A stretch of 64,000 bases of DNA from the IMG/VR virus record IMGVR_UViG_3300047508_000265, positions 1 through 64,000 of that record; one strand, given 5' to 3'. This DNA comes from a virus. Positions 16,916 to 63,262 of the stretch are shown in pieces; the stretch's first letter is position 1, and each line of letters begins with the position of its first letter. The notes beneath the pieces were generated by a model. The model had not been told where the DNA came from. It saw only the letters and a list, made by a program, of their open reading frames with translations, and made no database searches. Both the position numbers and the translations under genes were made by a program.

Positions 16916-19761
<2,846 letters not shown>

Positions 19762-19765
<4 letters not shown>

Positions 19766-22792: not shown

Positions 22793-22793
<1 letters not shown>
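22074..22793 (-). CDS. glycine-rich virion/fibre tip protein
   Basis: FTT..SWTCPAG...V.AECWGGGGAGG ... GG.GAAGYV pattern typical of phage Gly-rich domains. Confidence 0.7.
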
Positions 22794-25840
<3,047 letters not shown>

Positions 25841-38125: not shown

Positions 38126-38315
38126 GGCTTACAGGAAGCAGACAGGTTGGGGGAAGGGTGACGTCCAGAGGCCCCGACAAATTAGTAGAAAAGAGTTCGA
38201 GGATAACTGGGATTTGATAGACTGGGGAAAAGTACCAAGACGATCACAAAGCTTTCTTAAATCTTCTCATGCGCCCGCGGAATCAGATGCATTTCGAAGA
38301 GCGACAGGCAAATGA
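38103..38315 (+). CDS. hypothetical protein (GKGD..RP....F..NWD.I family)
   Basis: Common small phage motif. Confidence 0.6.
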   Translation: MDDQGEYRAYRKQTGWGKGDVQRPRQISRKEFEDNWDLIDWGKVPRRSQSFLKSSHAPAESDAFRRATGK

Positions 38316-39049
38316 ACCATAGCTGCATTGTTCGATCTCATGGGGCAGGGCTGTTCTCAAACATCAACAAAATTCTAGTATGTTCGAGAATTTACGATCA
38401 TGTGCATGTAGATTGGAGTGTCGTTGATCACAATGACGCCGCATACAAATACGGAGGTAGTTTTTACGGCGATTGCTGGAATGTTTTATTCGAACCAACT
38501 ATTGCGCCCGATCCCCCATTCGATTCGATTTGGGAATACCCTTTTTACGAAATCACGGCTGGCTGTGCGGGCGTCTTATACCAAAACGAGCAATGGAATT
38601 GGAGACAACGATACAACAACGAATGGAAAAAGCTCACCTGTAAAGTGCAAGGGCTTCCAGTCGAGCCTAATACCGTGGGAGTCTTGATTCGTAGTGAGGC
38701 TCTTGGAGGCGAACAACTTTCAGGACGAAGTCCTACACTGGAACAATATGCTGCGTCAATCGACAAAAACGCTAATCTGTTCGTTGTATCAAGCGATCAA
38801 GAAAGTCTTTCATGGTTTTGCAATCAGTATCCAAATACGAAATTTACTGAAGGGATTAAACGAAATGCCAAACGTTCCGATCGAGAACAGCACATTCATA
38901 TTCCGCAAACTAAAGAGGATGCAGTGCAGGTAATGCAAGAAGTGCTAACTCTAGCAAATTGCCAAACCCTTGTCCATCCAGTTTCAAATATGGCAACCGC
39001 GGCGCTCTATATGAATTTGAATCTGAAAAGTATTTTCGTAAAATCATAA
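38312..39049 (+). CDS. NodZ/O-fucosyltransferase-like glycosyltransferase (GT-B)
   Basis: GAGLFS; GVLIR (motif I); FVVSSD (motif II); EV..LANC..L....SN (motif III). Confidence 0.65.
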   Translation: MNHSCIVRSHGAGLFSNINKILVCSRIYDHVHVDWSVVDHNDAAYKYGGSFYGDCWNVLFEPTIAPDPPFDSIWEYPFYEITAGCAGVLYQNEQWNWRQRYNNEWKKLTCKVQGLPVEPNTVGVLIRSEALGGEQLSGRSPTLEQYAASIDKNANLFVVSSDQESLSWFCNQYPNTKFTEGIKRNAKRSDREQHIHIPQTKEDAVQVMQEVLTLANCQTLVHPVSNMATAALYMNLNLKSIFVKS

Positions 39050-39051
39050 TC

Positions 39052-39696
39052 ATGCTCAACCTATCTAACATAACTTTAGTGTGTTTTGAGGCACGGCATT
39101 TCAAACGGGCTCTAGCATTCATGAATGACATGTTAGACTTCGCAATCTGGGGCGGCATGCGTTGGTACAACCATCATGATAGCTACAAAGATTTTTGGTA
39201 TTCTGAACTAGAGGCCCACAAAATCGTTCATACATCTCACATGATGTATACCCATTTGGATGGGTTTCCTGTTAACTCGGAAGTATGGGACCCAAAATGG
39301 TTGGAATATGACTACATTGGCGCACCTTGGCCTGAAGGTTGGCAACCTTATCGAGTAGGAAACGGCGGCTTTTCTCTTAGAACTAAAAAATTAGCGGCAA
39401 GATTAGAAGAATTATCGCAGGGACAGACAGATATCGTAAATGATATTCTTGTTAGCGTTACTCATAGAAAACAACTAGAACGAGAGGGCTTCAAATTCGC
39501 ACCAATCGCAGAAGCAGCAAAATTTTCTGTAGAATTTGCAGTAGCTGAGACCCCCAAAAAGACTTTTGGTTTTCACGGTTATTGGCCAGACCCTACGCAA
39601 ACCCCTCCACCATATTTTACTCTCAGCGGCTGCATGATTCCTAAACCCGATGCAAAAATTGATAGTTGGGATTTCTTTTGCAAAACTAAGAAATGA
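39052..39696 (+). CDS. DUF5672 putative glycosyltransferase
   Basis: DG......W...WLEYDYIGAPW...VGNGGFSLR...FS.E....FGFHG. Confidence 0.8.
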   Translation: MLNLSNITLVCFEARHFKRALAFMNDMLDFAIWGGMRWYNHHDSYKDFWYSELEAHKIVHTSHMMYTHLDGFPVNSEVWDPKWLEYDYIGAPWPEGWQPYRVGNGGFSLRTKKLAARLEELSQGQTDIVNDILVSVTHRKQLEREGFKFAPIAEAAKFSVEFAVAETPKKTFGFHGYWPDPTQTPPPYFTLSGCMIPKPDAKIDSWDFFCKTKK

Positions 39697-40556
39697 ATAT
39701 TTACCATCATTCCGGCGATATTGGTGACGTAATCGCAAGCATGCCGGTTATGCGCGAATTGGGCGATGGTAAACTAATAATCAGTGAAACCTCTTACCCG
39801 CCAGGAAAAAATCCAGCAAGAAGCATGCGAGGAAAAAGATTCGAAGCACTGCAGCCAATGTGGGAAGCCGCGCCTTACGTCACTTCAATCGAATGGCAAG
39901 ACCAACCGAAAGGCGTTACTCACGACATCGGAAGATTTAGAATGGAGGCAGCATGGACAGCAGGGGAAACCTTATACCATTGGCAAGGCAGAGCAATGAA
40001 AGTGAACTTGCCTGAAGCGCCGCAACGATGGCTGCATGTCGAGGTTCCATACCATGATATGATTGTAATTGGCCGCACTGCCCGTTATCATACTCCTCAC
40101 TTTCCTTGGCGATTGATAGTTGAAAAATTCCATAACAACCTTTTATTTCTGGGTCTGCCGGAAGAATACAAAGCTTTTCGGGAAGAGTTTGGCAAAGTGG
40201 AATACCAGCTCACCAAAGATTTGCTGGAAGCCACCAAGATTATCGCAGGCTCCAAGTTATTTATCGGCAATCAATCTGTTTTGTTCTGGATAGCCGCGGG
40301 GCTCGCGCATCATCTGATTCAGGAAACCTTTCACCAAATCTATTCACACGATTCCATAGTGCCAAGGCGGAACGCCTTATATGTCAATTCTGCAGAAGAT
40401 CTGTTATTGGTACATACGACCTTGGGGCTCAGCACAGACTGGCTGAAAAAATACAATTTCCCAATTTCATCCCGCGTCAATCTCACCACAAGCGCAGGCG
40501 ATCCCAGAAAAAACTTAACCACTTCCGCCGAGATATTTGAACTACTAAACTCATGA
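39693..40556 (+). CDS. GT9/heptosyltransferase-like glycosyltransferase
   Basis: HSGDIGDVIAS.P N-terminus; I.GSKLFIGNQS...IAAGL. Confidence 0.7.
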   Translation: MNIYHHSGDIGDVIASMPVMRELGDGKLIISETSYPPGKNPARSMRGKRFEALQPMWEAAPYVTSIEWQDQPKGVTHDIGRFRMEAAWTAGETLYHWQGRAMKVNLPEAPQRWLHVEVPYHDMIVIGRTARYHTPHFPWRLIVEKFHNNLLFLGLPEEYKAFREEFGKVEYQLTKDLLEATKIIAGSKLFIGNQSVLFWIAAGLAHHLIQETFHQIYSHDSIVPRRNALYVNSAEDLLLVHTTLGLSTDWLKKYNFPISSRVNLTTSAGDPRKNLTTSAEIFELLNS

Positions 40557-41209
40557 AAGCTGTTACTTATTTTAACGAAGTGGAAAGTTTACACGATCCT
40601 GCCCTGCTTGAATTATGGAAAGCTTCATGGGCAAAGTTTGGATGGGAGCCCGTGGTGCTTACTATCAAAGATGCCTTGGAAACTGACCCCGATATGGTGG
40701 AACGTTTTCAGAAATCTCCTCTACTAAAATCCCATCCCGGAAATCCATCCGGTTATGTTTGGGCTTGCTTAGTACGCTGGGTAGCGCAACTTAAAATAAA
40801 AGAGCCAAGCCTGCTGCTGGATTGGGATGTTATATGTAACGGATACAAACCAGAAGACGCACCGAAAGAAACTAACGATTTTAGACCCGTATTTCTAGCT
40901 GGTGGTTTATGTCCATGCGCAGTTGCAGGAAGACATATGACTTGGCAAATGATTTGTGCTTGGCTAGAATTCGCACCCTTTGCCCCAAACTTTAGCACAG
41001 AAGCTTTGGCGAAAGACAACGCAGACCAATATGCTATTGCTTACGTAATGCCTAAAGAATGGGCGATCGTCGATCCAAAATCTCCTTGTATAGCATATCA
41101 GAACGAAGGCTGGAAAACAGCGCCAATGATTCATTTCCCAAATCAAGTAACAAGCTATCCGAGAAGTGAAGTAATTAAACATGAATTAGGGATATTAGGG
41201 AACAGTTGA
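40553..41209 (+). CDS. putative GT-A glycosyltransferase (DxD)
   Basis: LW..SW...GW.P.VL; C..RW; LLDWDV; DQ; IHF. Confidence 0.55.
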   Translation: MKAVTYFNEVESLHDPALLELWKASWAKFGWEPVVLTIKDALETDPDMVERFQKSPLLKSHPGNPSGYVWACLVRWVAQLKIKEPSLLLDWDVICNGYKPEDAPKETNDFRPVFLAGGLCPCAVAGRHMTWQMICAWLEFAPFAPNFSTEALAKDNADQYAIAYVMPKEWAIVDPKSPCIAYQNEGWKTAPMIHFPNQVTSYPRSEVIKHELGILGNS

Positions 41210-41697
41210 AAACTCCTTTAAAAATTCTAGAAAAGAATAAACGCTGGCGACTGCGGCATCCGGTTCAAGTAAAAGCAATAAACCAAAGCTATTATTCAAA
41301 AAATTCTAGAAAAATAAAAGCCAAGGTTCGTAGATACAAAAAACAAAACAAAAAGAAAGTAAACGCATCCAACAAAAAATGGCGAGCAAAGAACAAAACA
41401 AAAGTAAAAGAAATAGGCCGAAAATACTACTTAAAACACCCCGATAAGGCAAGAACAAATTGCGTTAAAAGACGAGCCTTAAAACGAAAAGCTACAATTG
41501 GTGATTTAACAGAAATCGCCAAAATTTACGCCCGCGCCAGAGAGCTTAGACAATGGTTTAATGTCGTAGTTGATCATAAAATTCCTCTTTCAAAAGGCGG
41601 GGCGCATTCACCCGAAAATTTACAAATTATTTACGCTTACGAAAACGCTCAAAAACACAACAGTTTAACTTATAAACCTAAAATAATTTTCAAATGA
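41206..41697 (+). CDS. HNH homing endonuclease, family A
   Basis: VVDHKIPLSKGGAHSPENLQIIYAYEN. Confidence 0.9.
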   Translation: MKTPLKILEKNKRWRLRHPVQVKAINQSYYSKNSRKIKAKVRRYKKQNKKKVNASNKKWRAKNKTKVKEIGRKYYLKHPDKARTNCVKRRALKRKATIGDLTEIAKIYARARELRQWFNVVVDHKIPLSKGGAHSPENLQIIYAYENAQKHNSLTYKPKIIFK

Positions 41698-45975: not shown

Positions 45976-46320
45976 ATGTATTACAAAAGTAAAAAATTTT
46001 ACAAGACACGGAAACGTTATGCTAAAACGCATCGAGTCGAGCTACGAATTAAGCAACGTCAATATAATAGAAAACTAAAAGAAGATATATTTAATCATTA
46101 TGGAATCGAATGCGCTCACTGTAAATTTTCTGATTTACGAGCTTTATCTATCGATCATATTAACGGGGGCGGCACTCAACATAGAAAAAAGTTTAAAAGT
46201 CCCTACTCTTTTTACATATGGTTGCGACAAAATAAATTTCCAAAAGGGTTTCAAACTCTTTGTATGAATTGCCAATTTATCAAACGACATACAAACAACG
46301 AAAGTACCCGAATAAAATGA
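45976..46320 (+). CDS. HNH homing endonuclease, family B
   Basis: YG.ECAHC...LSIDHINGGG..HR...YIWL..NKFPKGFQTLCMNC. Confidence 0.85.
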   Translation: MYYKSKKFYKTRKRYAKTHRVELRIKQRQYNRKLKEDIFNHYGIECAHCKFSDLRALSIDHINGGGTQHRKKFKSPYSFYIWLRQNKFPKGFQTLCMNCQFIKRHTNNESTRIK

Positions 46321-46850
46321 AACTAATCGGCATCACAGGACGCAAAAAATCAGGTAAAGATACAGCAGCGCGAGCCCTGATAACAGAAGGCTACTGGCCA
46401 CTGCGCTTCGCAGGCGGGTTGAAGGCGATGGTGGCATGCCTACTCACCTACATGGGCATAGAGCCCGCGACCATCGAGAAGATGATCGATGGCGATTTGA
46501 AGGAAATGCCTTTTCCATATCTGGAAGGCAAGTCTTGTCGACAGATTATGCAAACTTTGGGTACAGAATGGGGCAGGGATTGTGTAGGCAGGGATTTATG
46601 GGTTCACATTTGCATGGAACGAGCGAAGTCCTACGACAAGGTTGTCGTTACGGATGTTCGCTTTAAGAATGAGGAGAAAGCAATCAGGGAGGCAGGCGGA
46701 AAGATCGTGAAGATTGAACGACCTACATTGGTGAGAGACGATCACCCCTCTGAGGCAATTGACAAAATCCACCCCGATCTAATTATTATGAACACAGGAA
46801 CAATTAAATACCTACAGGAGAAAATTACTGAATATGCGCGAAGGAACTGA
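46317..46850 (+). CDS. deoxynucleoside monophosphate kinase
   Basis: IGITGRKKSGKDT; FA..LK; RQIMQTLGTEWGR; TDVRF.NE; H.SE. Confidence 0.88.
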   Translation: MKLIGITGRKKSGKDTAARALITEGYWPLRFAGGLKAMVACLLTYMGIEPATIEKMIDGDLKEMPFPYLEGKSCRQIMQTLGTEWGRDCVGRDLWVHICMERAKSYDKVVVTDVRFKNEEKAIREAGGKIVKIERPTLVRDDHPSEAIDKIHPDLIIMNTGTIKYLQEKITEYARRN

Positions 46851-47902: not shown

Positions 47903-48343
47903 ATGGGTTCCTCAATTAAATACTACAAAGAGCATCCAGAAAAACGTCGTGAACATATGCGACAATGGAGAGCTAACCGTCCGGGCTATAAATCTGCAGA
48001 AGGAAAATTATATCGTAAACGGTACCCTGAAAAAGCTAGATTATCTTGTCGAAAAAATTATCAAAAGCACAAACAAGAGAGAATTCAAAAAGGCGCCATT
48101 CATGCCAGAACTTATAGAGCCAGAAAACATGGCGCAACTATAGGAAACGCAAAAGACATCCTAAAAATTTATAACCGAGCGAAAGAACTGCGGCAATCTG
48201 GGTTTGATGTAGCCGTTGATCACATTTTCCCGCTTTCAAAGGGAGGAGCGCATTCTGTGGAAAATCTTCAAATAATTTACTCTTTTGAAAACTCTCAAAA
48301 AGGCGATCGGCTTAATTACATACCTTCTATTATTTTCAAATGA
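47903..48343 (+). CDS. HNH homing endonuclease, family A
   Basis: VDHIFPLSKGGAHSVENLQIIYSFEN. Confidence 0.9.
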   Translation: MGSSIKYYKEHPEKRREHMRQWRANRPGYKSAEGKLYRKRYPEKARLSCRKNYQKHKQERIQKGAIHARTYRARKHGATIGNAKDILKIYNRAKELRQSGFDVAVDHIFPLSKGGAHSVENLQIIYSFENSQKGDRLNYIPSIIFK

Positions 48344-50453: not shown

Positions 50454-51047
50454 ATGAGAAAACCAGGAATTGAAACTTTTACTGGCAAAAGAGTTTTGAT
50501 TAAAAACACAAAACCGAAGAGCATTAACATATATGATATTGCTCGCGGACTGGCCATGACAGTTAGGTTCAATGGACAACTCGATGATTTCTTCTGCGTA
50601 GGACAGCATTGTATAAATGTAAAAAACATGCTGAAATCAATGGGCGAGCCCCCGCCTGTTCAAATGTATGGACTGCTTCACGACGCTCCTGAATTCGCTT
50701 TAGGCGATTTAGTACGACCGGTAAAAATAATGCTTCCCTCCTTTAAAAAACTAGAGACAGGAGTGATGAAGGCGGTGTTAAAGGCACTGGGACTCCGCAA
50801 ACAACTTGCTCTAACCAAGGAGCAACTCAAAAGTGTGAAGTTCGCCGACAACTATCAGGTAATCATTGAACGTCTAGCTCTTAAATCTGCAGCATGCAAA
50901 AAGAACGGTTGGAATGATTTTGGTCCTCAACCAAGAGAACTAGGAATGGACCCCAAGGCTAAAAGGAAAAAACTAATCTGCATGAGTTGGAAAACGGCCG
51001 AAAAGAAGTATCTTAAGGAATTCAAAAAACTGAAAGCGGAATTATGA
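50454..51047 (+). CDS. HD-domain nucleotide phosphohydrolase (YfdR/YfbR-like)
   Basis: IETFTGK...DIA..LA...RFNG...V.QH...LLHDA.E...GD...P.K...AD. Confidence 0.85.
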   Translation: MRKPGIETFTGKRVLIKNTKPKSINIYDIARGLAMTVRFNGQLDDFFCVGQHCINVKNMLKSMGEPPPVQMYGLLHDAPEFALGDLVRPVKIMLPSFKKLETGVMKAVLKALGLRKQLALTKEQLKSVKFADNYQVIIERLALKSAACKKNGWNDFGPQPRELGMDPKAKRKKLICMSWKTAEKKYLKEFKKLKAEL

Positions 51048-57030: not shown

Positions 57031-57921
57031 ATGACTATTTGCCTGCATTGTATGGTTAAAAATGGTCGCTGGACTTTGCCTGCGCTGTTTGAGTCTTGTG
57101 AGAAGTTTGTTGATAACGCTGTGATTTTAGATACCGGCAGTACAGACGGTACTCGAAGATGGCTACGTGAGCAGTCCATAATTCCAACAGAAGTGATAGA
57201 GCAACCTTTCGTGAATTTCGGCAAGACCCGAACCATTGGAATGGCCCACGCCCGCGGGCAAGCTGACTGGCTTCTCCTGCTGGACTCTGATATGGTGCTT
57301 CGCTGCGACAAGCCGGTAGAGGAAATTAAGGCTTCGATCGATCCCACGGCCAAAGCCTACATGCTCCAAATGGATCAACCGGTAACCTATTGGAATACTC
57401 GCCTGGTTAGCGGCAAGGAATTGTGGGAATACAAGGGAGTGACTCATGAGTATCTGGATCGTTCCGCGGGTTCGCCTAAGTTGGAAGGTCTTATGGTTGA
57501 GCATCACTTCAATCATGGACCACAGAAGTTCGAACGCGATCTTCGTCTGCTTTCTGCGGACGTTTCACGAGATCCGTATGATGCTAGAACAATTTTTTAT
57601 CTTGCTCAGACTTTGCGGGATATGGGCCACACTCTTCCTGCGATTTGGTACTATCAGTTACGTGCTGCGATGGGCGGATGGGAAGAGGAGAAATTCTATT
57701 CGTTATATGAGGCAGCAAGATTGGCGGGAGACCCAAGAGCTATGGAAGCTGCTTATAAATTTCGACCTAGTCGCGCTGAAACTGCTGATTGGTTGGCGAA
57801 TTATTATAGAACTCAGGGGGACAATATGTGTACCGGAAAGTGGGAAAACATAAGGGCCAATATCCCTCTTCCTCCCGATATACTGTTCCTTAACACCAAA
57901 AGTTATGGCCCCCGAAACTAG
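57031..57921 (+). CDS. GT2 glycosyltransferase with C-terminal TPR-like repeats
   Basis: ICL.CMVKN; DTGSTDGT; F.NFG..R; LLDSD; Y.GVTHEY; D.R..FYLAQT; GW.EE; RP.RAE. Confidence 0.88.
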   Translation: MTICLHCMVKNGRWTLPALFESCEKFVDNAVILDTGSTDGTRRWLREQSIIPTEVIEQPFVNFGKTRTIGMAHARGQADWLLLLDSDMVLRCDKPVEEIKASIDPTAKAYMLQMDQPVTYWNTRLVSGKELWEYKGVTHEYLDRSAGSPKLEGLMVEHHFNHGPQKFERDLRLLSADVSRDPYDARTIFYLAQTLRDMGHTLPAIWYYQLRAAMGGWEEEKFYSLYEAARLAGDPRAMEAAYKFRPSRAETADWLANYYRTQGDNMCTGKWENIRANIPLPPDILFLNTKSYGPRN

Positions 57922-58274: not shown

Positions 58275-58592
58275 ATGATACTTGATGAATACCAAGAGCG
58301 AGCTTATGACTTGGCGCTTCCTACGACCAAAAATATAACTTACATGTTGCTTGGAGTAACTAATGAATCTGGGGAGGCCGCTGGGAAATTGAAGAAAGCG
58401 CTTCGAGGCGATAAGAAACTAGCCGCGATAACTGAAGATATCGCACAGGAATTGGGTGATGTGCTTTGGTATGTATCCGGAGCCGCTAGAGTTCTAGGGT
58501 ATTCTTTGGATGAAATCGCCTGTATGAATTTGAAAAAATTGGAAGATAGACAATTGAGAGGTAAACTGCAAGGTGACGGAGACGAACGCTAA
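58275..58592 (+). CDS. mazG: MazG-like nucleoside triphosphate pyrophosphohydrolase
   Basis: EYQ; E.GE...K.KK; ELGDVLWY; N..KL.DR..RG...G.GD.R. Confidence 0.88.
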   Translation: MILDEYQERAYDLALPTTKNITYMLLGVTNESGEAAGKLKKALRGDKKLAAITEDIAQELGDVLWYVSGAARVLGYSLDEIACMNLKKLEDRQLRGKLQGDGDER

Positions 58593-59064
58593 AATTATTT
58601 ATTCGCTTTTATGGGGTTTAGTTTTTCCTGAAAAAAGGAAAGTGATTCTTCATAAGTATAATATTTCGGATAAAAGAAAAGCGGTAACGAGACGATATGC
58701 ACAATCTGAGCGCGGAAAACAAACTATTACAGCTTATAACAATTCATCTCAAGGTAAGAACAATAGACGGCGAGCCAAACGAAAATACAAACGGTCTGAA
58801 AAGGGCCGACTAAAGAATTGTGTTCATGCTGCAAAACGTAATGCTCTGAAGAGGTGTCGTACGGTTGGTGATCTTTTTGCTATAGAAAAGGTTTACGCTC
58901 GTGCGCAAGAGCTTCGACAATGGTTTGATGTTGTAGTTGATCATATTGTTCCTCTTGCTAAAGGCGGCGCCCATTCTCCAGAAAATTTGCAGATTATTTA
59001 TGCTTTTGAAAATGAACGCAAGGGAGCCCGCTTAGATTATAAGCCACGAGTTATTTTCAAATGA
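58573..59064 (+). CDS. HNH homing endonuclease, family A
   Basis: VVDHIVPLAKGGAHSPENLQIIYAFEN. Confidence 0.9.
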   Translation: MTETNAKIIYSLLWGLVFPEKRKVILHKYNISDKRKAVTRRYAQSERGKQTITAYNNSSQGKNNRRRAKRKYKRSEKGRLKNCVHAAKRNALKRCRTVGDLFAIEKVYARAQELRQWFDVVVDHIVPLAKGGAHSPENLQIIYAFENERKGARLDYKPRVIFK

Positions 59065-60965
59065 TTTTATCAGAAAAGTTTCTCAAGCCTTATAAAACAG
59101 CTAAACCGCCCTTCGGGTTTAATGGTCTTGGGCATGTTGTATATCGCCGGACCTACAGTCGTTTTAAAGAGGACGGTCAGTTAGAAGATTGGTGGGAAAC
59201 TTTGCAGCGTTGTGTGGAGGGCGCTCAAAAGATTGGTGCGGAATACACAGTTGAAGAAGCAGAAAAACTTTATAACCATTTATTTAATCTTAGATGCTCG
59301 TTCGCCGGAAGGTCTTTGTGGCAGTTCGGGGCTCCTACACTTGACAAACTCGGCGCGGCATCGCTACTTAATTGTTGGTTTGTTCCGATAACCAAACCTT
59401 ATGACTTCTGTTTTTTATTCGATAATCTTATGCTCGGAGGAGGCTGCGGATTTTCCATCCGTCGTCAAGATGTTCACGAACTTCCAAGAGTTAAACGCGG
59501 AGTTTCGATTACTCATCAAAAATGCAGCGACGCCGATTTCATTGTTCCCGATTCCCGTGAAGGGTGGGTACGGTTATTGCGCCGAGTTCTTAGGTCCTAC
59601 TTTGAAACCGGTACAAGTTTTAATTACTCGACTATTCTTGTGCGACCTCGCGGTGAAAGGATAGCGGGATTCGGGGGGATTGCTAGTGGGCCTATCAATC
59701 TTATAGAAGGTGTAGAGTCTATTTGTAAAGTTTTACGAGCACGAGAGGGCAAAAAACTTAGGTCTATCGATGCTCTTGATATTTGTAATATAATAGGAAG
59801 CATAGTTGTTTCGGGTAATGTTAGACGTTCTGCTGAAGTTGCGCTTTTTGACCCTGATGATGTCCTTCTTTTACGAGCTAAACGTTGGGATTTAGGAGAC
59901 GTTCCCAATTTTCGCGCAATGTCTAATAATAGTCTTTACGCTGATAGTTATGATCATATTATGGATCATGTGTGGCAAACATATGAGGGAAACGGCGAAG
60001 CGCTTGGGTTGTTTAATCTTCCCCTTGCTCAAAGCCAAGGACGATTAGGAGAGGAGCGAGACGATAATTGTGAGGGAGCTAATCCTTGTATGGAGGTTCC
60101 TCTTGCGCCTTATGAATGTTGTAATCTTGCAGAACTATTTTTAAATAATATCGAATCGCCTGAACAATTGTATGAGTGCGCCCGACTTCTCTATAAAACC
60201 CAAAAAGCAATTGCTGCTGCTCCCTATCACCATCCCGAAACAAATAGAGTGGTCCACCGAAATATGCGATTGGGACTTGGTGCCACTGGAATCTGTCAAG
60301 TTTCGAAAAAACTCGAATGGCTCGATAAGTGTTATAGAGACCTTCGGAAGTTCGATAGGGAATGGAGCAAGAAACGAGGATGGCCAGAGTCCATCAAACT
60401 TACCACCATTAAACCGAGCGGTACGTTGTCCCTCCTCGCGGGTTCCACGCCGGGTTGTCATCCAGCCTACTCGCAGTACTATCTTCGTCGTGTCCGATTA
60501 AGCTCCTCTGATTCCCTGATTCCCTGCCTCCGTGAAGCTGGCTACAATGTAACTTTTCAGGAGAATCAGGACGGTTCCGTGAATCGTGACACTCTGGTTG
60601 TTGAGTTTCCTTGTGAGGCTGGGGAAGGAGCGAAGCTCGCCTCTGATATGACTGCGGTGGACCAGCTTGAGTTAGTGAAGAAGCTTCAGACGATATGGGC
60701 TGATAACGCCGTCTCAGTTACTATTTATTATGAACATAGCGAGTTAGACGCCATACGCGCTTGGCTGAAGGAACATTATGCTTCCTCAATTAAATCCGTG
60801 AGCTTTCTCCTGAAGCAGGGCCATAACTTCAAACAGGCGCCTTATGAGGCGATAGATAAGACAACCTATGATATGCTAATGCAGAAAATTAAACCGATAA
60901 AAAATATCTCGCAGGGCGAACTAATAGAGGAGGAGTGTGCAGGAGGAAAATGCCCAGTTCGCTAA
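59061..60965 (+). CDS. nrdJ: class II (B12-dependent, monomeric type) ribonucleotide reductase
   Basis: RTYSR; GR.LW; NCWF; GNVRRSA; NPCME...ECCNL.E; TTIKPSGT; C-terminal CAGGKCPVR. Confidence 0.93.
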   Translation: MILSEKFLKPYKTAKPPFGFNGLGHVVYRRTYSRFKEDGQLEDWWETLQRCVEGAQKIGAEYTVEEAEKLYNHLFNLRCSFAGRSLWQFGAPTLDKLGAASLLNCWFVPITKPYDFCFLFDNLMLGGGCGFSIRRQDVHELPRVKRGVSITHQKCSDADFIVPDSREGWVRLLRRVLRSYFETGTSFNYSTILVRPRGERIAGFGGIASGPINLIEGVESICKVLRAREGKKLRSIDALDICNIIGSIVVSGNVRRSAEVALFDPDDVLLLRAKRWDLGDVPNFRAMSNNSLYADSYDHIMDHVWQTYEGNGEALGLFNLPLAQSQGRLGEERDDNCEGANPCMEVPLAPYECCNLAELFLNNIESPEQLYECARLLYKTQKAIAAAPYHHPETNRVVHRNMRLGLGATGICQVSKKLEWLDKCYRDLRKFDREWSKKRGWPESIKLTTIKPSGTLSLLAGSTPGCHPAYSQYYLRRVRLSSSDSLIPCLREAGYNVTFQENQDGSVNRDTLVVEFPCEAGEGAKLASDMTAVDQLELVKKLQTIWADNAVSVTIYYEHSELDAIRAWLKEHYASSIKSVSFLLKQGHNFKQAPYEAIDKTTYDMLMQKIKPIKNISQGELIEEECAGGKCPVR

Positions 60966-61104
60966 CTTATAAAATGTTGGAGCATATTTCTAAGGAACTT
61001 AAGAAATGCAAAATGCCGCCGGTGTATAACTCGAAAGGCGAACCTTGTTATGCTTTGCGGTTTTCTGGTACAAAAAGACAATATCGTAAATTGATGAAGA
61101 AGTT

Positions 61105-61776
61105 ATGCACGACTACCTAGTCTTCTGTTCCACCCGCCACGGCCAAACGAATGCCGAGCTTGGCATCTACGGCGCTGATCGGAACTTCGATCTTTGCATT
61201 CATGACTATTCGAGTTGGGGCACAGATCCACAGGAAAAGTTTAAACGATCAGAATATTGGTTTACTCGTCCAAAGGCTGAGAAGTTAGAAACGGCAGCTA
61301 TGGTGCTTCCTCATTTGCCTGTAAGTTACAAGTACTATGCTTTTTTAGACGACGATCTTACGATTACAACTGACCAGCTTAATCGTTTGTTTCTTGTTGG
61401 TGATTCCCTTGGTCTCGATCTTTATCAACCGGCATTGACAGGAAATAGTTATGGCTCGTGGAAACATTTGTTTCAATATGAGCTTCCAAATTGTCCTGCT
61501 GTTCGGGATGTAGACTTTGTTGAGATAATGATGCCTTTTATGAGCAAGGCGTTTTTAGACAAGCATATTGGAATGTTTGATTGCAACATTTCCGGTTGGG
61601 GCCTCGACCTGTATGATTGGGGCAAGGGCTATCTAGTAAATTCTATCGCCGTTGGACACTATCGTAAACCAGAAAGGCGTAATCGTATACTTCGCAACGG
61701 CCTCACACCTGCACAAGAACTTTGGATAATGACTAAGATATACAACCCAGATGACTGTAGTTTGCCGCCATGTTAA
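61105..61776 (+). CDS. DUF707-family putative glycosyltransferase
   Basis: FLDDDL; L.L.QPAL; FVEIM.P..S; GWGLD. Confidence 0.75.
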   Translation: MHDYLVFCSTRHGQTNAELGIYGADRNFDLCIHDYSSWGTDPQEKFKRSEYWFTRPKAEKLETAAMVLPHLPVSYKYYAFLDDDLTITTDQLNRLFLVGDSLGLDLYQPALTGNSYGSWKHLFQYELPNCPAVRDVDFVEIMMPFMSKAFLDKHIGMFDCNISGWGLDLYDWGKGYLVNSIAVGHYRKPERRNRILRNGLTPAQELWIMTKIYNPDDCSLPPC

Positions 61777-62006
61777 TGCCTTATCAAGACCCAGATGATT
61801 ACGTGAGTTTTTTCGACCAACATACCTGTCGTTTTCATGAAATAGCTCCTGGCGAACCTTATGCTGGCTGCACATGCAGCACAGATTGGGGACAACGAAA
61901 GGCTACGCCGGAAGAGCGAGAAGCCAATAGGAAGAGTCGTCTAGAGCGGGAAGAACGAAGAGCTAGGACTTATCGAGCAGTAGGATTTTTATGCAGTCAG
62001 CCTTAG
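61770..62006 (+). CDS. small Cys/His-containing hypothetical protein
   Basis: ORF track; lies between the two GT-like genes. Confidence 0.5.
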   Translation: MLMPYQDPDDYVSFFDQHTCRFHEIAPGEPYAGCTCSTDWGQRKATPEEREANRKSRLEREERRARTYRAVGFLCSQP

Positions 62007-62773
62007 TCGTAGCTTGGCACAATCCAAAACAGATCGCCGAGTTTAAGGAGGCGTGGAAGATTCAGTCTGGTCACCAGGTCTATTTTCAGCAGGATAAGGA
62101 CAAAGAGGGCTGTGCCGTAACGAAGAACAAAGGAATTCGTCGAGCGTATGATGACGGCGCTGAGATGATCGTTGTTTTAGATGATGACTGTTATCCTAAA
62201 GACGAACACTATACTCTGCAGAATTTGTTTGAGGATTATGAATCCGCCTTGAAGCCGCAGAAGGTTTTGATGTATTATGCCATTACTCAGCCTCGTTCTC
62301 GTGGAACGCCGTATTTAAACCGGACTATTCAAATGCCGGTTGCTGCGGCTTTGGGGTATGCTTTAAAGTTCCCAGATTTGGATGCCGCTTCTTCTTTGGT
62401 TCTCGGCAGCCAGATTGAGATTGGAATGCTGAAACAACCAATACACGGAAGGTATTTTAGTGGTTGCGGAATGAATTTCGCCTTTCGTCGTGAATGGATT
62501 GATTGTGTTCAATTTATCAACATTCCCAGATTCGACGACATTTGGATGTTTTTAATCTTCCAGAAAATCGCCTACGCGAAAGGATTTTGTTTTTCTTTGG
62601 AAGGTCCTGATGTAATTCATCAGCGTCAATCCAACATTTGGAGAAATTTACAAGACGAAGTCAAATATCTTGAGATAAATGAAACTCTTTGGCAGACGAT
62701 TCATGCTGCTCCTTCTTGCTTGTCCGCTTCGGAATTGAGGGATAAACTTTTTCTAAGTTATCCTCGAACATGA
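61991..62773 (+). CDS. RGP/UAM-like GT75 protein (putative UDP-arabinopyranose mutase)
   Basis: LDDDC, RGTPY..R, PDLDA, CGMNFAFRRE, RFDDIW and H...SN...NL..E follow the plant RGP motifs in order. Confidence 0.8.
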   Translation: MQSALVVAWHNPKQIAEFKEAWKIQSGHQVYFQQDKDKEGCAVTKNKGIRRAYDDGAEMIVVLDDDCYPKDEHYTLQNLFEDYESALKPQKVLMYYAITQPRSRGTPYLNRTIQMPVAAALGYALKFPDLDAASSLVLGSQIEIGMLKQPIHGRYFSGCGMNFAFRREWIDCVQFINIPRFDDIWMFLIFQKIAYAKGFCFSLEGPDVIHQRQSNIWRNLQDEVKYLEINETLWQTIHAAPSCLSASELRDKLFLSYPRT

Positions 62774-63037: not shown

Positions 63038-63262
63038 TCATGTGTTTACTTTCTCGGGTTGGCAAGATTCGAACTTGCGATCTGATGCTCCCAAGGCATC
63101 CGCGCTGGCCGCTACGCTACAACCCGAGGAAGGAAACCCTCGGTTGCATCCGGGCGGCAATGGTTGTGTCTTGAGTTCGCGCATAAGATTAGGATCGGGT
63201 TCTGAGCCCATTTGTCTAGACATTTCTTTTAGGAATAAATTTTCGAATGTTTCTCGGTTCAC
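63038..63262 (-). CDS. coupled small ORF reading through the tRNA
   Basis: GTGA overlap at its start and ATGA overlap at its stop. Confidence 0.35.
   Translation of the reverse strand: MNRETFENLFLKEMSRQMGSEPDPNLMRELKTQPLPPGCNRGFPSSGCSVAASADALGASDRKFESCQPEKVNT
63054..63126 (-). tRNA. trnP: tRNA-Pro (TGG), CCA not encoded
   Basis: CGGGTTG/CAACCCG acceptor, GCG/CGC D arm, GATGC-CTTGGGA-GCATC anticodon arm, GCAAG-TTCGAAT-CTTGC T arm, A73. Confidence 0.9.

What the first reader, a model, noticed from the sequence alone, without database searches (positions are those of the whole stretch)
61105..62773. Plant cell-wall-type pair in a phage: GT75 RGP/UDP-arabinopyranose mutase next to DUF707
Seen: 61991 matches, in order, the RGP motifs DDDC, RG.P(Y/F)..R, PD.DA, CGMN.AF.RE, R(Y/F)DD.W and H...SN...NL..E, including the Arg that is self-glycosylated in plant UAMs. 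61105 has the DUF707 motifs QP.L, FVEIM.P and GWGLD. Known: plant RGPs convert UDP-Arap to UDP-Araf; prokaryotic homologs are little studied. Inference: the phage makes its own furanose donor and DUF707 may be the cognate furanosyltransferase, which would also assign a function to the DUF.
Basis: partly seen in the sequence, partly recalled or inferred. Interest (0 to 1): 0.8.

Follow-up and report, generated by a model that had tools for sequence, protein, structure and literature searches.

The report
Phage furanose-sugar cassette: GT75 mutase plus DUF707
A complete 83-kb phage genome carries two coupled genes, a compact metal-dependent enzyme that converts six-ring sugar donors into five-ring (furanose) ones and a DUF707-like transferase that most likely attaches that sugar; the repeated pairing gives a testable function for a protein family with no assigned function.

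Summary
Observation confirmed. 61991-62773 encodes a 260-aa GT75/RGP-type protein. Pfam RGP scores 23.5 bits against a cut-off of 23.8, and 42 of 43 homologues match it. The model matches the mutases MtdL and rice UAM2 at Z 22, against 14 for the next GT-A. Every MtdL catalytic residue is invariant, including the nucleophile Arg (R104). 61105-61776 encodes a soluble GT-A DxD enzyme distantly related to DUF707: its own match is weak, but 33 of 36 homologues match.

The GT75-DUF707 pair recurs on at least 11 other contigs. More distant DUF707-like genes instead sit beside FAD-type UDP-galactopyranose mutases, an unrelated enzyme class with the same function. That argues DUF707-like proteins are furanosyltransferases.

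Three corrections apply:
- Most phage GT75 genes pair with TAGT glycosyltransferases, not DUF707.
- The phage encodes no sugar-nucleotide synthesis genes, so the donor is more likely host UDP-galactose than arabinose.
- The acceptor is unknown. Collagen-like Gly-x-Thr fibres are the best candidate. DNA is disfavoured because no hydroxymethylase or TET was found.

Earlier unchecked scan notes report the same pair, and other GT75 cassettes, in other phage genomes. No activity has been tested biochemically.

The parts
61105..61776 (+). DUF707-like soluble GT-A glycosyltransferase (223 aa; DxD = D82-D84). It is the proposed furanosyltransferase.
   Evidence: ORF. Pfam DUF707 is weak for this protein (14.9 bits), but 33/36 homologues match. 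AlphaFold model pLDDT 91. GT-A fold: Foldseek E about 5e-7 to TarS/TarP/CgT; VIA Z 13.1 SpsA, 11.1 GlfT2. Nearest Atlas clusters are DUF707, mostly Uroviricota. Mutase linkage.
61770..62006 (+). 78-aa ORF overlapping the stop of the DUF707-like gene and the start of the GT75-like gene. Its status is uncertain.
   Evidence: ORF. No Pfam or PHROG match. Absent in the syntenic relative L007, where the two genes are only 25 bp apart.
61991..62773 (+). Compact GT75/RGP-type Mn2+-dependent NDP-pyranose/furanose mutase (260 aa). Key residues: DxD D64-D66, nucleophile R104, D129, G160-M161-N162, R180, D183, H210, R212.
   Evidence: Pfam RGP 23.5 bits for this protein and 42/43 homologues. Profile against PDB: OsUAM2 4.8e-10, MtdL 1.4e-8. 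Model pLDDT 95.5. Foldseek top hits MtdL 3.8e-12 and OsUAM2 7.6e-11. VIA Z 22.0 and 21.9 against 14.4 for the next GT-A. Catalytic residues mapped with PMC9937993 and invariant in alignment A1.
60935..61120 (+). 61-aa ORF bridging the RNR gene and the DUF707-like gene. It lies in the same co-directional, overlapping gene string; function unknown.
   Evidence: ORF. Conserved at 43% identity at the same position in L007.
17964..18833 (-). Collagen-like fibre protein with Gly-x-Thr triplets (22% Thr). Candidate acceptor by inference only.
   Evidence: A Gly-x-Thr x6 DNA pattern occurs only in the one other phage carrying DUF707-like plus GT75-like genes, out of 31 GT75-bearing viral records.
18830..19765 (-). 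Second collagen-like Gly-x-Thr fibre protein. Candidate acceptor by inference only.
22793..25840 (-). Large (1015 aa) fibre protein with long Gly-x-Thr collagen-like tracts. Candidate acceptor by inference only.
57031..57921 (+). GT2-TPR glycosyltransferase in the same rightward gene block. It is conserved with the cassette in L007 and is probably part of the same glycan pathway (inferred).
   Evidence: Pfam Glycos_transf_2 2.6e-7 and PHROG beta-1,4-glycosyltransferase 2.7e-20. 64% identical copy in L007.

Best explanation
The two genes form a co-transcribed, translationally coupled furanosylation cassette.

Step 1 is inferred from homology, fold and a complete catalytic set. The 260-aa GT75 enzyme binds a host nucleotide-sugar in the pyranose form through its DxD/His-Mn2+ site. 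The donor is most likely UDP-D-galactopyranose; UDP-L-arabinopyranose or a GDP-L-sugar are alternatives. R104 attacks C1 with D183 as base, the ring opens on the Arg-sugar adduct, and it re-closes as the furanose. This is the mechanism proposed for MtdL.

Step 2 is inferred from gene linkage. The pyranose/furanose equilibrium strongly favours the pyranose (established knowledge for UGM and UAM), so the mutase needs a consumer. The adjacent soluble DUF707-like GT-A DxD enzyme takes the NDP-furanose and transfers the furanosyl residue to an acceptor.

Step 3 is the weakest. The acceptor is probably a glycan built on phage proteins in the cytoplasm, together with the phage's other sugar enzymes (DUF5672, two GT2s and a pyruvyl transferase). 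The three Gly-x-Thr collagen-like fibres are the leading candidates.
For: GT75 identity:
- Profile hits to OsUAM2 and MtdL.
- 42/43 homologues match Pfam RGP.
- Z 22 to MtdL and OsUAM2 against 14.4 for the next GT-A.
- Equivalents of MtdL D109-D111, R159, D195, R257, D260, H287 and R289 are invariant across 43 homologues.
- The sugar-site motif is the plant-like G-M-N, not MtdL's S-Q-N.

Coupling: the start and stop codons of orf61, the DUF707-like gene, orf78 and the GT75-like gene overlap.

Linkage of the pair:
- L007/L108 and L111, plus nine contig-length pairs. One is a 1,851-bp contig holding 272-aa and 219-aa products.
- All 12 GT75-linked DUF707-like rows fall in one clade.

Linkage to other mutases:
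- Glf (E 2.9e-126 to 1i8t) overlaps the start of a DUF707-like gene in L117.
- UGM-like genes (E 8.8e-35 to 4dsg) abut DUF707-like genes in L115 and L116/L118.

GT75 relatives sit beside GT-A/GT enzymes or NDP-sugar epimerase/dehydratases in about half of the loci surveyed (22 of 41 close loci have TAGT).

Host-derived donor: no Epimerase, NTP_transferase or GLF match in the complete phage genome.

Acceptor hint: Gly-x-Thr fibres are present. They occur only in the other DUF707+GT75 phage among 31 GT75-bearing records.
Against: - No biochemical data exist.
- The window proteins fall below Pfam's curated cut-offs on their own.
- Positions equivalent to MtdL S86/D87 are Cys41/Ala42. They match neither the GDP-type nor the plant UDP-type enzymes, and D87 is essential in MtdL, so substrate and even activity cannot be read off.
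- Canonical bacterial DUF707 genes on Rhizobium and Comamonadaceae plasmids have no adjacent mutase.
- No DUF707-mutase fusion was found.
- The fibre co-occurrence rests on two related phages, which amounts to one evolutionary event.
- Two short DUF707-like contigs (L113, L119) show no mutase.
Confidence: 0.6

Rival explanations
1. DNA hypermodification. The cassette puts a furanose on a modified base of the phage genome to block host nucleases, as T-even phages do with glucose or arabinose.
For: - The cassette follows class II RNR, MazG and an HNH gene, in the block that also holds dNMP kinase, dNMP phosphatase and PolA.
- In 22 of 41 loci with close GT75 relatives the partner is TAGT (PF20691, E to 4e-36). 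That family is linked to DNA sugar addition in T6-like phages (PMC13390438).
- Unchecked earlier scan notes report GT75 beside hmC pathways in two large phages.
Against: - All known DNA glycosylations need a hydroxylated base made by a thymidylate-synthase-type enzyme or by TET/JBP. Neither is detectable in this complete genome at E <= 1.
- Neither is detectable in five GT75-bearing relatives (at least three of them also carry TAGT), three of them complete.
- This phage has no true TAGT, and the DUF707-like family shows no profile similarity to TAGT beyond the DxD.
- A pyruvyl transferase and several further GTs point to a complex glycan rather than a base adduct.
Confidence: 0.12
2. Host-envelope remodelling. 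The enzymes add a furanose to a lipid-linked host surface glycan (LPS, capsule or wall polymer) to mask the receptor or help release.
For: - Distant bacterial GT75 relatives and bacterial DUF707 genes lie in polysaccharide-type clusters with GT2, GT4, epimerases and pyruvyl transferases.
- DUF707 occurs in Acinetobacter outer-core loci (PMC4172580).
- Both enzymes are cytoplasmic and could act on undecaprenyl-linked intermediates.
Against: - No membrane-associated Gtr-type or flippase partner was seen.
- The phage looks lytic: it has terminal repeats and its own polymerase and nucleotide-metabolism genes, and I saw no integrase in the ORFs scanned. Seroconversion is a temperate-phage trait (established knowledge).
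- The host is unknown.
Confidence: 0.12
3. The GT75-like protein is not a mutase. It would act as an arginine glycosyltransferase, self-priming or modifying another protein, and the DUF707-like enzyme would be an ordinary pyranosyltransferase that happens to be adjacent.
For: - GT75 proteins self-glycosylate Arg, and with some donors (UDP-Glc) that is their only activity (PMC9937993).
- The phage protein is about 100 aa shorter than MtdL or plant UAMs, and it has Ala where MtdL needs Asp87.
Against: - The residues needed specifically for ring contraction in MtdL (D195, R257 and D260 equivalents) are invariant.
- Mutases of an unrelated superfamily replace GT75 beside DUF707-like genes. That is hard to explain unless the shared property is furanose supply.
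Confidence: 0.1

Closest known systems
MtdL / Hyg20 (bacterial GT75 GDP-L-galactose / GDP-L-fucose pyranose mutases; PDB 7xpr, 7yua)
   Same: Same fold (Z 22.0, rmsd 2.7 A over 235 residues). Same Mn2+ site (third Asp of the DxD plus His). Same nucleophile Arg, Asp base, beta-phosphate Arg and loop-A Arg.
   Different: - Only 20% identity and 260 aa against 376 aa.
- G-M-N replaces S-Q-N at the sugar site.
- Cys41/Ala42 replace Ser86/Asp87.
- Most homologues carry Pro at the aligned position of the GDP-selective Thr13, as plant UDP enzymes do. This alignment is inferred, not residue-verified.
- Encoded by a phage and not by an antibiotic gene cluster.
Plant UDP-arabinopyranose mutases / reversibly glycosylated polypeptides (GT75; OsUAM2 structure 8cid)
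   Same: Pfam RGP family. Motifs DDDC, RG.P(Y/F), CGMN.AF, R(F/Y)DD.W and H..SN. Z 21.9 to 8cid.
   Different: About 90 residues shorter and cytoplasmic in a bacterial host. No UDP-Arap source is evident. The partner is adjacent in an operon rather than in the Golgi.
glf-glfT type gene pairs (FAD-dependent UDP-galactopyranose mutase next to a galactofuranosyltransferase in bacterial glycan loci)
   Same: Same logic: a mutase immediately beside its consuming transferase. DUF707-like genes occupy that position beside Glf/UGM in L115, L116/L118 and L117.
   Different: Here the mutase is the cofactor-independent GT75 type. The transferase belongs to a family with no assigned function and is not GT2 or GfsA-like (GlfT2 Z 11.1 and AfGfsA Z 10.0, no closer than any other GT-A).
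ParB - TAGT - GT75 cassettes upstream of terminase genes in other uncultured phages
   Same: The GT75 gene is 40-54% identical and has a GT-A DxD enzyme directly upstream.
   Different: The partner is TAGT (PF20691), not DUF707-like, with no profile similarity between them. The genomic position differs, and those phages have no Gly-x-Thr fibres.
Plant and bacterial DUF707 (PF05212) proteins
   Same: DxD, QPAL, VEIM.PF and GWGLD core. 33/36 homologues match the Pfam model. The predicted GT-A fold agrees with earlier fold predictions for Arabidopsis members (PMC3522684).
   Different: The window protein scores below the Pfam cut-off. It has no N-terminal membrane anchor and is shorter (223 aa against a 299-position model). 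Rhizobium members have no adjacent mutase.

Membership tests
GT75 / RGP (PF03214) | Sequence match to the family model above the curated threshold | tested here: inconclusive
   The window protein scores 23.5 bits against a cut-off of 23.8 (E 3.9e-5). 42/43 homologues match at E <= 0.01, best 2.3e-16. The family profile hits OsUAM2 at 4.8e-10 and MtdL at 1.4e-8 among PDB chains.
GT75 / RGP (PF03214) | GT-A Rossmann-like domain plus the GT75-specific core and helical region | tested here: met
   Model pLDDT 95.5. VIA Z 22.0 (MtdL) and 21.9 (OsUAM2) over 235-245 residues; the next family scores Z 14.4. The Foldseek E-value gap is five orders of magnitude.
GT75 / RGP (PF03214) | DxD motif and conserved His coordinating Mn2+ (MtdL D111, H287) | tested here: met
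   D64-D65-D66 and H210 align to MtdL D109-D111 and H287. D64, D66 and H210 are invariant and D65 is nearly invariant in 43 sequences.
GT75 / RGP (PF03214) | Autoglycosylated/nucleophile arginine (MtdL R159) with Asp195, Arg257 and Asp260 around it | tested here: met
   R104, D129, R180 and D183 align to these residues (roles from PMC9937993). All are invariant.
GT75 / RGP (PF03214) | Divalent-cation-dependent NDP-pyranose/furanose interconversion or reversible self-glycosylation | not testable with these tools
   This needs purified protein and HPLC/MS.
DUF707 (PF05212) | Sequence match to the family model above the curated threshold | tested here: inconclusive
   The window protein scores 14.9 bits against a cut-off of 24.1 (E 0.016). 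33/36 homologues match at E <= 0.01, best 1.9e-8. The nearest Atlas clusters carry PF05212 in 80-86% of members.
DUF707 (PF05212) | GT-A fold with a DxD motif, as predicted for plant members | tested here: met
   Model pLDDT 91. Many GT-A families match at Z 10-13 and Foldseek E about 5e-7. D82 and D84 are invariant and D83 nearly invariant.
Mutase plus furanosyltransferase gene pair | The mutase and the transferase are adjacent, co-oriented, and the adjacency recurs in independent genomes | tested here: met
   The genes are joined only by short overlapping ORFs in the window. The pair recurs in L007/L108 and L111 and on nine contig-length-matched contigs. Glf or UGM-like genes sit beside DUF707-like genes in L115, L116/L118 and L117.
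Mutase plus furanosyltransferase gene pair | The transferase uses the NDP-furanose made by the mutase | not testable with these tools
   This needs a coupled enzyme assay.
Phage DNA glycosylation systems (T4-like hmC, TET/JBP-TAGT) | An enzyme that makes a hydroxylated base (thymidylate-synthase-type hydroxymethylase/hydroxylase, or TET/JBP) | tested here: not met
   No PF00303 or PF12851 match at E <= 1 in six frames of the complete 83-kb genome, while control genomes did match. None was found in five GT75-bearing relatives either, at least three of which also carry TAGT.
Phage DNA glycosylation systems (T4-like hmC, TET/JBP-TAGT) | A DNA glycosyltransferase of a known family (TAGT, alpha/beta-GT) | tested here: not met
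   The only PF20691 signal is 14 bits on the N-terminus of the GT75-like gene itself. The DUF707-like profile against a TAGT profile gives probability 0.8%.

The most novel reading that the evidence does not exclude
DUF707 as a whole is a family of furanosyltransferases. This phage pair would then be its smallest soluble working example: a cofactor-free GT75 mutase feeding a DUF707 enzyme that decorates Gly-x-Thr collagen-like virion fibres with a furanose. If so, the eleven uncharacterised Arabidopsis DUF707 proteins become candidates for unassigned Golgi arabinofuranosyltransferases, working downstream of the plant GT75 mutases.
Probability: 0.25. Interest if true: 0.8.

Novelty: new variant of a known kind. 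Interest (0 to 1): 0.62.

Why it matters
Furanose sugars occur in microbial and plant glycans but not in mammalian ones. Their nucleotide donors are hard to make, and the transferases that use them are poorly catalogued.

This finding has three consequences:
- GT75 mutases, so far characterised only in plants and two actinomycete antibiotic pathways (PMC9937993), form a large phage-borne branch of compact 255-300-aa enzymes with every catalytic residue in place. These small soluble enzymes are candidates for testing in enzymatic NDP-furanose synthesis.
- DUF707 gets its first concrete, cheaply testable function. The papers held here only predict it to be a glycosyltransferase. The argument is that two unrelated mutase classes occupy the same slot beside DUF707-like genes.
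- It adds a furanose branch to the little-explored field of phage-encoded glycosylation. The target could be virion, DNA or host.

Tried and rejected
- Direct DNA or protein similarity to deposited phages gave almost nothing. Only a tRNA-Pro matched at DNA level. GT75L had one 32% hit in an unannotated 595-kb uncultured phage, and the DUF707-like protein had none.
- The single-sequence scan of IMG/VR for GT75L found nothing. The alignment-based scan was needed.
- I looked for DUF707-like/mutase fusions. None appeared among longer proteins (weak evidence) or among 145 profile hits checked with the GT75 HMM and UGM queries.
- I tried to survey DUF707 in reference genomes. There were 0 matches in 401 sampled Pseudomonadota and 0 in five GT75-bearing MAGs. 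The family is too rare there for a neighbourhood statistic.
- Rhizobium and Comamonadaceae plasmid DUF707 loci have no adjacent mutase, so the linkage is not universal.
- I tested whether the DUF707-like family is a diverged TAGT. It is not (hhalign probability 0.8%).
- The DNA-modification reading was considered and down-weighted, as set out under rival explanations.
- Promoter and terminator scans around the cassette were no better than shuffled sequence and were not used.
Full report
**What is there.** The window is the first 64 kb of a complete 83,126-bp IMG/VR phage record with direct terminal repeats. The rightward gene block from about 38 to 63 kb carries replication and nucleotide-metabolism genes:
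- helicase, PD-(D/E)XK nuclease, dNMP kinase, family A polymerase and a dNMP phosphatase;
- MazG, class II ribonucleotide reductase and several HNH endonucleases.

The block ends with four ORFs whose starts and stops overlap:
- a 61-aa ORF (60935-61120);
- the 223-aa DUF707-like gene (61105-61776);
- a 78-aa ORF (61770-62006);
- the 260-aa GT75-like gene (61991-62773).

Beyond them lie convergent genes and a tRNA-Pro on the minus strand.

**The GT75-like protein.** On its own it misses Pfam's RGP threshold by 0.3 bits (23.5 against 23.8, E 3.9e-5). A database search returned at least 159 homologues of 250-310 aa, almost all pre-annotated with PF03214. In a 43-sequence alignment, 42 members match RGP individually, best E 2.3e-16.

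The profile of that alignment finds only GT75 structures in the PDB: rice UAM2 (8cid, 4.8e-10) and the Marinactinospora mutase MtdL (1.4e-8). The AlphaFold model (pLDDT 95.5) has MtdL and OsUAM2 as its best structural matches:
- Foldseek gives 3.8e-12 and 7.6e-11, with the next family at 6e-6.
- VIA-align gives Z 22.0 (rmsd 2.7 A, 235 residues) and 21.9, with the next GT-A at Z 14.4.

I mapped the HMMER alignment to MtdL numbering and used the structure-function paper on MtdL (PMC9937993). Every residue shown there to be essential has an invariant counterpart:

| MtdL residue | Window protein |
|---|---|
| D109-D111 (DxD) | D64-D66 |
| R159 (nucleophile and autoglycosylated Arg) | R104 |
| D195 | D129 |
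| R257 | R180 |
| D260 (proposed base) | D183 |
| H287 (Mn2+ ligand) | H210 |
| R289 | R212 |

The nucleotide and sugar therefore cannot be read from sequence. The protein is about 100 residues shorter than characterised GT75 enzymes but spans the whole fold (model 1-259 against chain 6-362).

**The DUF707-like protein.** Its own Pfam match is weak (14.9 bits, E 0.016). Of 36 aligned homologues, 33 match DUF707, best 1.9e-8. The ESM Atlas places it in clusters where 80-86% of members carry PF05212, and those clusters are mostly tailed phages.

A full HMMER scan with the family profile finds 3015 cluster representatives at E <= 1e-3, of which 139 are at <= 1e-30. The model (pLDDT 91) is a generic GT-A fold with no specific nearest family:
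- Foldseek gives about 5e-7 to TarS, TarP, CgT, LH3 and GalNAc-T2.
- VIA-align gives Z 13.1 to SpsA, 11.1 to GlfT2 and 10.0 to the fungal Galf-transferase GfsA.

It has a DxD (D82 and D84 invariant, D83 nearly invariant) and begins directly with the first beta-strand. It is therefore soluble, unlike the plant proteins, which I recall as membrane-anchored.

**Linkage seen from the GT75 side.** Alignment-based scans gave 64 viral and 41 genome loci. Relatives at 40-54% identity are essentially all on viral contigs. Relatives at 25-35% identity are split between phages and bacterial MAGs, mainly Solirubrobacterales.

Only one locus, L007, carries a DUF707-like gene next to the GT75 gene. L007 is a 79-kb syntenic phage with the order GT2-TPR, MazG, RNR, orf61, DUF707-like, GT75-like. 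In 22 of the 41 close loci that could be evaluated, the immediate neighbour is a TAGT glycosyltransferase (PF20691, E down to 4e-36). The usual order there is ParB-like, TAGT, GT75, terminase.

Around the distant relatives, the commonest neighbours are NAD-dependent sugar-nucleotide epimerase/dehydratases (13 of 80 neighbour proteins) and GT2/GT4 enzymes. So in about half of the loci surveyed the GT75 gene sits beside a transferase or a sugar-nucleotide enzyme, but the partner varies.

**Linkage seen from the DUF707 side.** Nine DUF707-like homologues come from contigs whose length equals that of a contig carrying a GT75-like homologue: 13362, 3037, 1851, 2265, 59384, 3175, 6361, 6876 and 4430 bp. 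Several of these contigs are so short that the two genes must abut.

A metagenome scan added L111, which has the pair, and a set of relatives at 28-39% identity. In that set:
- L117 has an E. coli-type UDP-galactopyranose mutase (2.9e-126 to 1i8t) whose end overlaps the start of a DUF707-like gene fused to a GT90-like domain.
- L115 has a DUF707-like gene followed, with overlapping stop and start, by a eukaryote-type UGM-like flavoenzyme.
- L116/L118 have the same UGM-like enzyme class (8.8e-35 to 4dsg) abutting the DUF707-like gene.

On a tree, all 12 GT75-linked rows fall in one 39-row clade. The UGM-linked rows fall in two lineages outside it. GT75 and FAD-dependent UGMs are unrelated in fold and cofactor and share only the pyranose-to-furanose reaction. 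Their interchange at the same position is the strongest argument here that DUF707-like enzymes consume NDP-furanoses.

The argument has limits:
- Canonical DUF707 genes on Rhizobium and Comamonadaceae plasmids have GT2 neighbours but no mutase.
- L113 and L119 show no mutase on their short contigs.
- No fusion protein was found.
- DUF707 is too rare in sampled reference genomes for a statistic.

**Which sugar.** The complete phage genome has no match to the Epimerase, NTP_transferase or GLF families at E <= 1, while control genomes did match. The pyranose donor must therefore come from the host pool. UDP-galactose is the common bacterial nucleotide-sugar with a furanose form, and plant GT75 enzymes can convert it (PMC9937993). 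The alternative partners of DUF707-like genes are galactopyranose mutases.

I therefore rank UDP-Galf above UDP-Araf, but this is inference. An earlier, unchecked scan note describes a GDP-mannose-3,5-epimerase, DUF707-like and GT75-like island elsewhere. That arrangement would point to GDP-L-galactofuranose, so the sugar may differ between lineages.

**Which acceptor.** Three options remain open.

DNA:
- The position among nucleotide-metabolism genes and the TAGT partners of relatives suggest it. TAGT is implicated in adding a second glucose in T6-like phages (PMC13390438).
- However, no thymidylate-synthase-type or TET/JBP enzyme is detectable in this genome. None is detectable in five GT75-bearing relatives either, at least three of which also carry TAGT. 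No known DNA glycosylation works without one.

Virion proteins:
- The phage encodes further sugar enzymes: DUF5672, GT2-TPR, and beyond the window a GT2 and a polysaccharide pyruvyl transferase.
- It also has three collagen-like fibre proteins made almost entirely of Gly-Pro-Thr and Gly-Ala-Thr triplets. Such repeats are O-glycosylated on Thr in Bacillus BclA (own knowledge).
- A Gly-x-Thr x6 pattern occurs in only one of 31 GT75-bearing viral records, the L007 phage that also has the DUF707-like gene. This is suggestive, but it amounts to one evolutionary event.

Host envelope glycans cannot be excluded.

**Comparison with the known, and novelty.** The library holds no paper on phage GT75/RGP enzymes or on DUF707 function. 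[quoted passage not shown]

The gene-pair logic (mutase plus consuming transferase) is well known from glf loci. Two things are new:
- the GT75 type of mutase in phages;
- the DUF707-like partner, which gains a functional hypothesis.

Earlier notes of this scan, which are AI notes and mostly unchecked, had already seen the DUF707-GT75 pair in two other genomes, the ParB-TAGT-GT75 cassette, and GT75 genes beside hmC pathways in two large phages. The phage GT75 theme is therefore recurrent in this scan.

**Verdict.** The acceptor is unresolved. I rate it a new variant of a known kind, of moderate to high interest.

Noticed in passing
window 17964-18833, 18830-19765, 22793-25840 (all - strand): Three collagen-like fibre proteins built from Gly-Pro-Thr and Gly-Ala-Thr triplets (15-22% Thr), including a perfect (GAT)x12 run. 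The same kind of repeats occurs in the related 79-kb phage (L007 record) but in none of 30 other GT75-bearing viral records.
   Followed up: partly
window 38959-39696 (+); genome 64041-64931 (-) and 64879-65760 (-) (L107:1041-1931, 1879-2760): More glycan enzymes in the same phage: a DUF5672 protein (E 1e-19), a second GT2, and a polysaccharide pyruvyl transferase just beyond the window. Neighbouring ORFs 38312-39049, 39693-40556 and 40553-41209 have no Pfam or PHROG match.
   Followed up: partly
window 41206-41697, 47903-48343, 58573-59064 (+): Three similar 146-163-aa HNH endonuclease genes are scattered through the replication block. One lies directly between MazG and RNR.
   Followed up: no
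L030:2869-6001 (+): Four tandem TAGT paralogues lie directly upstream of the GT75 gene in one viral contig. L027 and L029 have TAGT copies on both sides of it, which suggests stepwise building of an oligosaccharide.
   Followed up: no
L117:1919-4670 (+): A metagenome contig has a bacterial-type glf gene overlapping the start of a 551-aa protein. That protein joins a DUF707-like domain to a GT90/CAP10-like C-terminal domain.
   Followed up: partly
L001-L040 (for example L002:2504-4697): In most close relatives the GT75 gene is the last gene before the small and large terminase subunits and follows a ParB N-terminal-domain protein. Some neighbours are FkbM or other methyltransferases and one is a sulfotransferase.
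   Followed up: partly
window 63053-63127 (-): A tRNA-Pro(UGG) gene lies just after the cassette. Its only DNA-level relative among deposited phages is a tRNA-Pro of Salmonella phage KKP_3831 (82% over 60 nt).
   Followed up: no
window 46260-46850 and 50454-51047 (+): T5-like nucleotide-salvage genes (dNMP kinase and deoxyribonucleoside 5'-monophosphate phosphatase) are present, with no thymidylate-synthase homologue anywhere in the genome.
   Followed up: partly
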